From contig OX597819.1 of NCBI GenBank assembly GCA_951406725.2, forward strand, positions 20,522,001 through 20,586,000: a DNA stretch of 64,000 nt, read 5' to 3'. Position 1 is the stretch's first letter, and the number at the start of each line of letters is the position of its first letter. This DNA comes from Octopus vulgaris. Lineage: Eukaryota. A program made the translations under genes and the position numbers. Below are positions 2,990 through 42,545 of the stretch, piece after piece. A model generated the notes under the pieces. That model was not told the DNA's origin, did no database searches, and was given only the letters and a program-made list of their open reading frames with translations.

Positions 2990-3900
2990 ACAGTATTCAA
3001 GGTGGGGTCGGGCAAAAGTGGAGAAGAGAAGGATAATGGTATGGATATCTCTCGACTGGAACATTCTGAGAATCCAGGAACACATTCTGCGGGCCATGTC
3101 AACTTTAGTGTTTATATGAGTGGCCCAGCTTATGTTGTTGTCCACAATTACTCCCACGTCTCTGATGTTGTTGGATGCCACGAGAGTTTCACCTGAAGGA
3201 AGGGAGTATGCGAGTTTCAGGGCATTCTCTTTTCCAAAGTGGATTAACTCGAATTTATCCTCGTTCAGCAGCGTATTGTTCTCTTCTGCCCATTGGATAG
3301 CAGCCAGTAGATCTGACTGAAGTCATGTCCGGTCACTCGCCTCATTTATGACCTTCTGGAGCTTGGAATCATCTGCAAAGATTTTTATGTTGCAATGCTT
3401 TATGATGTCATTAATGTCATTAATGTAGATGATGAAAAGAAGTGGGCCCAGCACAGTGCCTTGCAGAACGCCACTACTGACTTTGGCTGGGCTTGATTTT
3501 ACTCCTTCAACTAAAACATGTTGAGATCTGTCTATCAGGAAACACTTGATCCATTTCAGTAACTTTCCAGAGACACCAATGTTGGATAGTTTTTTCAATA
3601 GGATCTTGTGATCAACCCTATCGAAGGCCTTGCTGAAATCAAGGTAGATGACATCGGTGTTGGAGTCCTCTCCCAAAGCTCTCAAAATGTCATCAAAGTG
3701 ATGCAGGAGCTGCGTTAGGCAGTCCCTTCCATTACGGAACCCATGTTGGTTAGAGATCAGCTGTCTGTTGCTTTCCAGAAATTGGGTTATTCGAGATCTC
3801 ACCAGCCTCTCAAATACCTTGATGATATGAGAGGTGAGTGAGATCGGACGGTAGTCAACTGCAACGTACTTCTTTCCCTTTTTGAAAACTGGGACAACAA
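2990..3900 (-). pseudogene. CR1/L2-type LINE ORF2 reverse transcriptase fragment
   Basis: YRPISLTS, QHGFR, YLDFSKAFD, GVLQGTVLGPLLF, FADDSK and RPHLEYC motifs. In-frame stop at 3323-3325, truncated at both ends. Confidence 0.92.
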
Positions 3901-3913
3901 TATATATATATAT

Positions 3914-4209
3914 AAAGACACCCTTCGGCCATGAATGACCATGGGATTGCACCTAGAAAGTTATCCTTCTAGACACAAGTCCGGGCAAGGTTGTTTATGG
4001 AAGGTCAGCAGTCGCCCATGCATACCAGCCTCCCCTCTCCACGCCACCAGTGTTATCCAAGGGAAAGACAAAGGTCGATACAGCTTCGCACCAGTGACGT
4101 CGCAGCTCATTTCTACAGCTGGGTGAACTGGAGCAACGTGAAATAAGTGCCTTGCTCGAGAACACAACACGCAGCCCGGTCCGGGATTCGAGCTCACAAC
4201 CTCACGATC

Positions 4210-4388: not shown

Positions 4389-4489
<101 letters not shown>

Positions 4490-4544
4490 AAAATAGTAAA
4501 GAGTGAAAAAACGACAGAAGGCTTAAATGTTAAAGAATATATAT

Positions 4545-5580
4545 AAATTTAAAAACCTATTGAACAGCATAAACCCAAATATACAGTTCACAATGGAATA
4601 CAACCAAAAGGAGCTCCCGTTCTTGGATATACTAATTAAAAAAATTAACCTTAAAATAGAAACAGACATTTTCTACAAAGCCACAGACGCCAAACAATAT
4701 CTTCTTTTTAATTCATGCCACCCAAGACACACTAAAACAAACATCCCCTTCAACCTTGCAAGAAGGATATGCACAATAGTGTCAGAACAAAATACCAGGA
4801 ACTTCAGACTGCAAGAACTCAAAATCACCTTAATTGACAGACATTACCCAGCTCAACTCATAGAGGATGGGATCAGACGTGCAACAAAAATCAACATAGA
4901 AACTTTAAGAAAAGTTCAACACAACAACACACCTTCCCCGAAAATACTACCTTACATATCTACATTCAACCCCAGAAACAAAGAAGCTTTCACCATCATC
5001 ACCCAGAATTTACCAATACTTCATAAAAAAACCCAAATTAAAGGAAATTCTAAACATACACCAAATCATTAAAAGCTACAAACAGCCTAAATCACTTAAA
5101 CAGATTCTCACAAAGGCAAAATTATCTTCTGAAATTACGGATGCAAAAGTAAAAAAATGTGGTAGATCGAACTGTGCAACATGTCCTAACCTACTAGAAG
5201 GATCAGAATTCTTCTTTAAAGAGGGACAGAAATTCAAGATTAAATCTAACTTTAATTGTGCCTCTGAAAACATAATTTATGTCATTAAATGCTCGGGCTG
5301 CAACCAAGACTACGTGGGGTCCACGGGACTATCACTCAGACGTAGATGCACACTGCATCGACAACAGATTGCATTCCTCGAATATAGAATGATACCTTTT
5401 AGTGAGCACATTGAGAAATGCGCAAAGCAACTACAACCACAATTTTTAATCTTTCCATTTTACCAATGTGCTTTCGGATCATCAACACAAATTAGACTAA
5501 ACAAGGAAACATTCTTCATTGAAAAGTACAAACCCAGACTCAACTATCCAAACATAATAATACAGAGAAATTCACACTAA
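4545..5580 (+). pseudogene. PLE RT thumb + Cys linker + GIY-YIG endonuclease (frameshifted near 5030)
   Basis: IQFTMEY..LPFLDI, YKATD..QYLLFNSCHP, NIPFNLARRI; then KCGRSNCATC, FNCASENIIYVIKCSGCNQDYVGSTG..LRRRCTLHRQQI. Confidence 0.9.
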
Positions 5581-5716
5581 GAGAGGAAGGGAAAAAAAAA
5601 TTTTTAAGCGATTATCTCCCTTACACCGGAAGAAATCACGCACTACCTTCCCTTATTTAGAACTCTCCGTAGCAAAAAAACAAGGATAACGCTATTAAAG
5701 ATAAACATTACGTCGC

Positions 5717-5755
5717 AAGAAATTTGAAGAGCTAAATGCGAAACCGGTCTTTCTT
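5717..5755 (+). ncRNA. Minimal type I hammerhead ribozyme motif, family B
   Basis: AAGAAA(U)-UUGAAGA-GC uaaau GC-GAAA-CCGG-UC-UUUCUU, with palindromic ACCGGU stem III and a GUC site. Confidence 0.75.
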
Positions 5756-5886
5756 TAAAAATTATAAAATTATGTCATTATAAGAAAGGAAAAAAATTTT
5801 TCCAATATTCTCCAGACATATTGACGCAAATATATATATTCTTTAACATTTAAGCCTTCTGTCGTTTTTTCACTCTTTACTATTTT

Positions 5887-5943
<57 letters not shown>

Positions 5944-41908: not shown

Positions 41909-42006
<98 letters not shown>

Positions 42007-42122
42007 TAGTAAAAAGTGAAAAAACTACAGAAGGCTTGATTTAAAAGGTTAAAAAATATATATTTGAGTCATTATGTCTGAAGAATGTTATAAATGTTTT
42101 TCATACAATGACATAGTTTTTG

Positions 42123-42162
42123 AAGAAATGACCGGTTTCGCGTTCAGCTTTTCAAATTTCTT
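42123..42162 (-). ncRNA. Minimal hammerhead motif, family B (U3/A8)
   Basis: AAGAAAU-UUGAAAA-GC ugaac GC-GAAA-CCGG-UC-AUUUCUU, with a perfect 7-bp stem I. Confidence 0.78.
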
Positions 42163-42295
42163 ACATCGTTATGTTTACGTTAAGAGTGAAGGAGAGTTCC
42201 AGATAAAGGGAGGTAATAAGTGATTTCTTCCGGTGTAAGGGAGATAATCGCTTAATATTTCTCCTTCACACTTCTCAACGTAAACATAACGATGT

Positions 42296-42335
42296 AAGAA
42301 ATTTGAAAAGCTGAACGCGAAACCGATCATTTCTT
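42296..42335 (+). ncRNA. Minimal hammerhead motif, family B (U3/A8; stem III mutated to CCGA)
   Basis: AAGAAAU-UUGAAAA-GC ugaac GC-GAAA-CCGA-UC-AUUUCUU. Confidence 0.65.
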
Positions 42336-42496
42336 CAAAAACTATGTCATTGTATGAAAAAAAATTATAACATTCTTCAGACATAATGACTCAAATATAT
42401 ATCTTTTAACCTTTTAAAACAAGCCTTCTGTAGTTTTTTCACTTTTTACTATTTTCTATATATTCAACCACGTGCTTTAACACACCAACTTTCTCA

Positions 42497-42545
<49 letters not shown>

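What the first reader, a model, noticed from the sequence alone, without database searches (positions are those of the whole stretch)
42001..42498. ORF-less palindrome of two inverted Penelope pLTRs with two opposed hammerheads
Seen: ~195-bp near-perfect inverted arms around a 64-bp spacer. All of it is homologous to the 3' end of the coding PLE at 4486-5890, and each arm has an HHR (42123 minus, 42296 plus). It looks like a MITE but is retroelement-derived. Inference: it is either an extreme 5'-truncation/inversion product or a non-autonomous fold-back retrozyme-like unit. A transcript from either strand would form a long dsRNA hairpin that masks the ribozyme and could be an ADAR or small-RNA substrate.
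Basis: partly seen in the sequence, partly recalled or inferred. Interest (0 to 1): 0.75.

Follow-up and report, generated by a model that had tools for sequence, protein, structure and literature searches.

The report
Head-to-head Penelope retroelement stub
This palindrome is an ordinary, one-off remnant of a Penelope-type jumping gene: two short copies of the element's end lie head to head in a TA repeat, a known layout shared by about four in ten sampled copies of this family, and the only fresh lead is that the element's enzyme likely stutters as it starts copying and adds new AG repeats.

Summary
The palindrome and both hammerhead motifs are real, at the stated coordinates. It is two 5'-truncated 3' ends (262 and 198 nt) of a Penelope-like element joined head to head through a 3-nt overlap, plus the 42-nt PLE "tail" on one arm, in a (TA)n target. 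The "spacer" is just the longer arm's extra part. The junction occurs once in the 2.8-Gb genome, so this is no amplifying fold-back family. At least 36 of 88 sampled insertions are head-to-head pairs, with 47 different junctions among 48 short pairs. Each strand carries only one ribozyme; the short arm's has a private helix III mutation. The layout, opposed hammerheads and U3-A8 core are in print (PMC3846280, PMC8557442, PMC4209133), and the scan found this layout before on other DNA of this genome. Two family-level leads: pairs almost never carry two tails (0 of 35), suggesting one RNA primed twice; and (CT)n runs continue 151 element ends, never (AG)n (0), suggesting reiterative copying by the reverse transcriptase. 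Transcription is untested. Ordinary.

The parts
41913..41951 (.). Left half of the (TA)n target microsatellite
   Evidence: Sequence; nearly all family ends abut (TA)n
41953..42000 (-). (CT)n run of about 24 units in register with the element's terminal CT; likely added during reverse-transcription start
   Evidence: 151 exact genome-wide ends continue as (CT)n, 0 as (AG)n within 4 nt; 30 of 31 such runs are followed by (TA)n; origin inferred
42001..42262 (-). Long arm: last 262 nt of the PLE (3' pLTR), tail-less end; includes the so-called spacer 42196-42259
   Evidence: 93-97% to dozens of genomic copies over 1-262; 74% to window 5604-5888
42123..42162 (-). Type I hammerhead motif, U3-A8 core, 2-bp helix II, palindromic helix III; predicted cut after C at 42130; matches the commonest family variant
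   Evidence: the commonest variant, 47 arms; activity untested
42260..42262 (.). Head-to-head junction, 3-nt overlap shared by both arms; unique in the genome
   Evidence: alignments; (1 match); the stricter caller put the overlap at -1 because of a nearby mismatch
42260..42457 (+). Short arm: last 198 nt of the PLE, tailed end
42296..42335 (+). Second hammerhead motif with a G-to-A change at 42326 in helix III (G in 144 of 148 other arms)
42458..42499 (+). 42-nt AC-rich PLE tail; in full-length copies it runs on into the 5' UTR and ORF start
   Evidence: 667 exact tailed ends genome-wide; internal tails in L070, L074/L084, L083
42500..42545 (.). Right half of the (TA)n target
   Evidence: Sequence
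4489..5889 (+). Sister-subfamily PLE copy: 57-nt inverted arm (4489-4545) plus 5'-truncated, frameshifted RT-thumb/GIY-YIG region and 3' pLTR with hammerhead at 5717-5755; same head-to-head layout
   Evidence: (GIY-YIG E 0.003, below Pfam cut-off)

Best explanation
It is a single, likely dead-on-arrival insertion of an endonuclease-bearing Penelope-like element in which two short cDNA copies of the element's 3' end were joined head to head inside a (TA)n repeat. Shown: two 5'-truncated 3' ends, a tail on one only, TA flanks, a unique junction, and the same layout at many loci with other junctions. Inferred: the GIY-YIG endonuclease cut both strands of the (TA)n target; each 3' end primed reverse transcription on the same element RNA, one at the pLTR end and one 42 nt downstream at the tail end (both sites read CT then ATATATT, so the TA primer can pair there); the enzyme stuttered on CU at the first site, leaving the AG run; both cDNAs stopped early and were joined through a 3-nt microhomology. 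The two hammerheads are passengers, one per strand.
For: Unique junction. Four other end-to-end look-alikes each have another junction. 36 of 88 tail-selected, 10 of 40 TA-selected and 5 of 20 CT-selected loci are head-to-head pairs (lower bounds). 47 different junction coordinate pairs among 48 pairs up to 700 nt; 26 of the 48 overlap by 1-10 nt, 6 are blunt, 16 have extra letters. Partner arms are closer than random arms (median 1.9% against 5.0%; 49 of 54 in the closest quartile), as for one source. 35 of 35 tail-selected pairs with two outer ends have exactly one tail (p 8e-7 to 6e-11 against independence). Our arms are each 1.1-1.6% from the nearest copies, by rare or private changes. Family ORFs carry RT and GIY-YIG matches. 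Layout in print: PMC3846280, PMC8557442; two start sites and two-strand cutting in vitro: PMC11167929.
Against: The order of steps is inferred; self-priming on an antisense template (PMC3846280) or fold-back second-strand synthesis gives the same end product. One pair with two tails exists (L004) and 3 of 10 TA-selected pairs scored no tail (one has a degenerate tail). In vitro, the anole element starts at sites not homologous to the target, unlike the TA pairing proposed here. Pfam hits are below curated cut-offs. No empty allele was examined.
Confidence: 0.93

Rival explanations
1. A non-autonomous fold-back (MITE-like or retrozyme-like) unit that amplifies as a palindrome using PLE enzymes.
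For: ORF-less, has both ends and a tail; four other loci match end to end at 85-95%. A few junctions do recur: L198/L199 share one and L087 holds two alike.
Against: Junction found once in 2.8 Gb; the four look-alikes have other junctions; L198/L199 join through the 7-nt helix I complementarity and differ in tail placement; L087 is a local duplication with shared right flank. Only one hammerhead per strand, whereas retrozymes need two in tandem. It lacks the ORF-start RNA that the anole protein needs (by analogy).
Confidence: 0.03
2. Whatever its origin, the locus now acts as a regulatory hairpin RNA (ADAR or small-RNA substrate, ribozyme switch).
For: Any read-through transcript would fold into a stem of about 195 bp that hides the hammerhead.
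Against: Arm differences are uncompensated and mostly private; the plus-strand hammerhead is mutated; hundreds of such palindromes are expected from the sampled rate, so nothing singles this one out. No host gene was identified in the window (ORF list, not annotated further).
Confidence: 0.04
3. Same end product, other route: one cDNA folded back or switched template (self-priming, possibly on antisense RNA) instead of two primings on the two target strands.
For: Several pairs are near-perfect palindromes with equal arms (L082, L141, L105, L100); proposed in PMC3846280.
Against: A fold-back copy of the first cDNA should carry the same end on both arms; 35 of 35 pairs have a tail on one arm only, and L036 has CT runs of different length on both arms, each in its own sense. 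Our arms are unequal (262 and 198 nt).
Confidence: 0.2

Closest known systems
Inverted 5'-truncated pLTR insertions with optional tail of EN+ Penelope-like elements (Arkhipova 2013 PMC3846280; Craig 2021 PMC8557442, Fig. 2 legend)
   Same: Inverted truncated copy adjoining the 5' end, 30-40 nt tail on one end only, microsatellite target, microhomology at junctions (passages read).
   Different: Both arms are so short that no ORF is left; tail is 42 nt; an added (CT)n run at the tail-less end.
Schistosoma Cercyon PLE minimal hammerheads (Cervera and de la Pena 2014, PMC4209133)
   Same: Dual hammerheads 100-700 bp apart on opposite strands tied to truncated PLEs; U3-A8 core variant; G10.1-C11.1 pair; palindromic helix III.
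   Different: Here helix I is 7 bp and helix II only 2 bp with a 5-nt loop, against the longer helix II of most PLE motifs in that paper.
Poseidon_Ac of the green anole (Frangieh 2024, PMC11167929)
   Same: Two start sites bounding an AC-rich tail; AT-rich target cut on both strands; predicted dimer.
   Different: Here both start sites are followed by a TA-like 7-mer that can pair with the target; the endonuclease has the upstream C-x4-C-x2-C motif given for Neptune/Nematis, not Poseidon.
Animal non-LTR retrozymes (bioRxiv 10.64898/2026.07.22.740005)
   Same: Non-coding, pLTR-derived, type I hammerhead.
   Different: Retrozymes are head-to-tail tandems with at least two same-strand hammerheads; this is head to head, one per strand, single copy.
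Template slippage at LINE 3' repeats (UnaL2 TGTAA; cited in review PMC3747384)
   Same: Repeat units thought to be added by slippage at the start of reverse transcription (one passage).
   Different: LINE templates end in several repeat units; this PLE RNA has a single CU at each start site.

Membership tests
EN+ Penelope-like element, truncated inverted insertion | Homology to the 3' pLTR of an RT + C-terminal GIY-YIG element | tested here: met
   Arms continue into the ORF in long copies; RVT_1 E 3e-5 and GIY-YIG E 0.003, both under Pfam cut-offs
EN+ Penelope-like element, truncated inverted insertion | Inverted 5'-truncated copy adjoining the 5' end (head to head) | tested here: met
EN+ Penelope-like element, truncated inverted insertion | Optional 30-40 nt tail at one end, equal to the start of the element body | tested here: met
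   42458-42499; runs into the ORF start in L084, L083, L085
EN+ Penelope-like element, truncated inverted insertion | AT-rich or microsatellite target | tested here: met
   (TA)n on both sides; family tally
Neptune/Nematis clade | CX2-5CxxC motif upstream of GIY-YIG plus CCHH motif | tested here: met
   Seen by eye in the translation of 4909-5580; definition from PMC8557442
Neptune/Nematis clade | RT phylogeny with named references | not tested
   No Repbase references on hand; clade name is a lead only
PLE type I hammerhead | Core with 3-8 pair, GAAA, NUH, G10.1-C11.1, palindromic helix III | tested here: met
   Long arm: all met with U3-A8; short arm: helix III broken
PLE type I hammerhead | Self-cleavage | not testable with these tools
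   Monomer folds are weak, z 0.06 and -0.61; genomic footprint test inconclusive
Non-LTR retrozyme | At least two head-to-tail units, each with a same-strand hammerhead | tested here: not met
   One hammerhead per strand; definition
MITE / amplifying fold-back family | Many dispersed copies of the same unit with the same interior | tested here: not met
   1 junction match; 47 of 48 junctions distinct
MITE / amplifying fold-back family | Termini and target duplication of a DNA transposon | tested here: not met
   Termini are retroelement 3' ends, unequal (tail on one, CT run on the other); a duplication cannot be read inside (TA)n

The most novel reading that the evidence does not exclude
The stub is a fossil of the PLE priming step: one element RNA is primed once at each of two CT-ATATATT sites by the two cut strands of a (TA)n target, and the telomerase-related reverse transcriptase copies a single CU (or CUAU) over and over before it elongates, writing new (AG)n and (ATAG)n microsatellites at about a quarter of tail-less ends: telomerase-like repeat addition by a Penelope element in vivo.
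Probability: 0.45. Interest if true: 0.5.

Novelty: already known. Interest (0 to 1): 0.14.

Why it matters
The locus itself does not matter: it is one of probably hundreds of such stubs. The family statistics do give two testable points on the still unresolved PLE integration mechanism: the one-tail rule (two start sites used once each per insertion) and polar (CT)n additions that would link PLE reverse transcriptases to telomerase-type repeat addition and to microsatellite birth.

Tried and rejected
1) Amplifying palindrome family: rejected. 2) The 4486 copy as direct parent: rejected, 74-77% against 93-97% for other copies. 3) Genomic footprint of hammerhead cleavage: 17 of 143 short arms were called as starting within 2 nt of the predicted cut, but several were miscalls at palindrome centres. 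Genome-wide, 15 hits at about 10 loci (one is an internal duplication) against 323 intact copies; a control position 34 nt upstream gave 19 hits (its denominator was not counted). Not distinguishable from a TA-microhomology hot spot; dropped. 5) Expression: no RNA holder on record was listed; contigs of one large run and three runs guessed to be RNA covered both arms, and no listed piece bridged the junction; neither result bears on expression. 6) Rfam: no hit. 7) The de-duplication can merge distinct tailed arms, so locus counts are taken; there 5, 6 and 4 loci had no end recognised and stay in the denominators, L074 was dropped as the same insertion as L073, and 'single' includes pairs whose second arm escaped the 32-nt end motif. 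8) AG run as a pre-existing target or later replication slippage: disfavoured, not excluded. 9) Paper searches for slippage or microsatellite addition by PLEs and one search of scan notes found no description; the library lacks most subscription papers, and I read no supplements (those of PMC11167929 and PMC4209133 may show such ends).

Full report
Observation. The inverted repeat is real: 42001-42195 pairs with 42260-42457 (195/198 nt, 6 substitutions, one 3-nt gap), with 64 nt between; folding z is -36. Hammerhead-shaped motifs sit at 42123-42162 (minus) and 42296-42335 (plus). Rfam reports nothing at gathering threshold. Only short chance-size ORFs overlap it.

Anatomy. The minus strand from 42262 to 42001 is one continuous PLE 3' end, so the spacer is only the longer arm's extra part. 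The short arm starts at 42260, giving a 3-nt overlap. 42458-42499 is a 42-nt AC-rich tail: it follows 667 exact element ends genome-wide, and in longer copies it runs on into the 5' UTR and ORF start. Both flanks are (TA)n; on the left a 48-nt AG run lies between the target and the element. The copy at 4489-5889 is only 74-77% alike, is truncated and frameshifted, and has its own 57-nt inverted arm; the true source subfamily matches at 93-97% (which scored the best 40 of 1949 candidates). Family ORFs give RVT_1 (E 3e-5) and GIY-YIG (E 0.003) hits, both below Pfam cut-offs; 2 of 4 proteins scanned had no hit. A C-x4-C-x2-C motif before the GIY-YIG points to Neptune/Nematis by the description in PMC8557442; no tree was built.

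A 34-nt junction pattern with up to 2 mismatches matches once in 2.8 Gb, at this locus. Four other loci match end to end but have other junctions. Among loci chosen only by their 3' end (the first listed on contigs C1 and C2, plus a few followed up), 36 of 88 tail-selected, 10 of 40 TA-selected and 5 of 20 CT-selected are head-to-head pairs; 24 of the 88 span 500 nt or less (lower bounds). Among 48 pairs up to 700 nt from all loci, 47 junction coordinate pairs are distinct, and in 14 both arms hold a whole hammerhead. The few repeats are explained by helix I complementarity (L198, L199) or local duplication (L087). So the palindrome is the short end of a continuum of inverted insertions, not a family.

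Age and selection. Each arm is 1.1-1.6% from its nearest copies and 2.7% from the other; the differences are rare or private alleles, among them the helix III change (G in 144 of 148 other arms). Partner arms are closer than random arms in 49 of 54 pairs: one source per insertion, then neutral decay.

Ribozymes. The core is the U3-A8 variant with palindromic helix III, the commonest form in the family. A transcript of either strand holds only one sense hammerhead, fully buried in the stem. Such motifs need a dimer and cleave poorly in vitro (PMC4209133), and were dispensable for insertion in vitro (PMC11167929). A genomic footprint of cleavage was sought and not established.

Mechanism. Shown: layout, tail on one arm, TA target, unique junction. 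In full-length context both insertion end points read CT followed by ATATATT. All 35 tail-selected pairs with two outer ends have one tail, none two (p 8e-7 to 6e-11); against this, L004 has two tails and 3 of 10 TA-selected pairs scored none. Inferred: both target strands are cut and each primes on one RNA at a different start site, as the two start sites, two-strand cutting and predicted dimer of the anole element allow; the short cDNAs are joined by microhomology (26 of 48 junctions overlap by 1-10 nt, 6 blunt, 16 with extra letters; no shuffled expectation computed).

Side lead. Exact ends continue as tail 667, (TA)n 420, (CT)n 151 and as (AG)n 0. 30 of 31 CT runs in the sample are followed by (TA)n, 3 tailed ends carry (ATCT)n, the far flank of paired insertions is TA, and L036 has a CT run on each arm in its own sense. 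The element has one CT at each site, too little seed for replication slippage. Reiterative copying by the reverse transcriptase is the simplest reading, but realignment would need a terminal mismatch, 20 of the sampled loci were chosen for having CT runs, and no empty allele was seen. Searches found no description for PLEs; slippage at LINE tails is known (PMC3747384, three passages).

Literature seen. PMC8557442: 12 passages. PMC3846280: 10 passages. PMC11167929: parts 1-2 of 4. PMC4209133: parts 1-2 of 4, which states that dual minimal hammerheads occur 100-700 bp apart on opposite strands and describes U3-A8. bioRxiv 10.64898/2026.07.22.740005: part 1 of 5 and 9 passages. No supplements read. 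Earlier scan notes on other DNA of this genome reached the same reading; I formed mine before looking, and they are not independent support. They call the genome an octopus; I did not test that.

Expression remains untested.

Verdict. Observation confirmed; ordinary truncated, inverted PLE insertion with tail; already known; interest 0.14.

Noticed in passing
window 41953-42000; genome-wide: (CT)n runs in register with the element's terminal CT at 151 exact ends, none in the (AG)n orientation; (ATCT)n at 3 tailed ends. Likely added by the reverse transcriptase.
   Followed up: partly
L083:2345, L084:4922, L085:3858 (internal tails): Both end points of insertion (pLTR end and tail end) read CT then ATATATT, a 9-nt repeat that offers pairing to a (TA)n primer.
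   Followed up: partly
L083:2117-3263 (G000:C2 near 37.544 Mb): Tandem of 459-bp units, each starting exactly at the predicted hammerhead cut and running through tail and about 286 nt of the ORF start; found without selecting for that position. Template jump or circle, or local duplication.
   Followed up: partly
L194:1135-1953 (G000:C3 near 141.73 Mb): Three mini-units that start at the predicted cut and end about 54 nt past the tail, in inverted and tandem order; this locus was selected for that start.
   Followed up: partly
L198 and L199 (G000:C13): Two separate palindromes share a junction made by the complementarity of the two strands of hammerhead helix I.
   Followed up: partly
L087:1775-3503 (G000:C1 near 150.047 Mb): Two palindromes with the same junction 1.3 kb apart and a shared right flank: local duplication.
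   Followed up: partly
L084:4812-8001 with L148: Near full-length family copy: short pLTR, tail, 5' UTR, long frameshifted ORF with a His/Thr/Gln/Pro-rich N-terminal stretch, preceded by a 1.8-kb inverted arm.
   Followed up: partly
L004:1029-1950 (G000:C27): Two adjacent palindromes, one with no tails and one with two: the exception to the one-tail rule.
   Followed up: no
all short pairs: The tail is more often on the shorter arm (22 against 9).
   Followed up: no
window 2990-3952 (minus): ORF fragments that read like a LINE-type reverse transcriptase, just upstream of the 4489 PLE copy; not scanned.
   Followed up: no
window 5717-5755: The sister copy's hammerhead has a U3-G8 core instead of U3-A8.
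   Followed up: no
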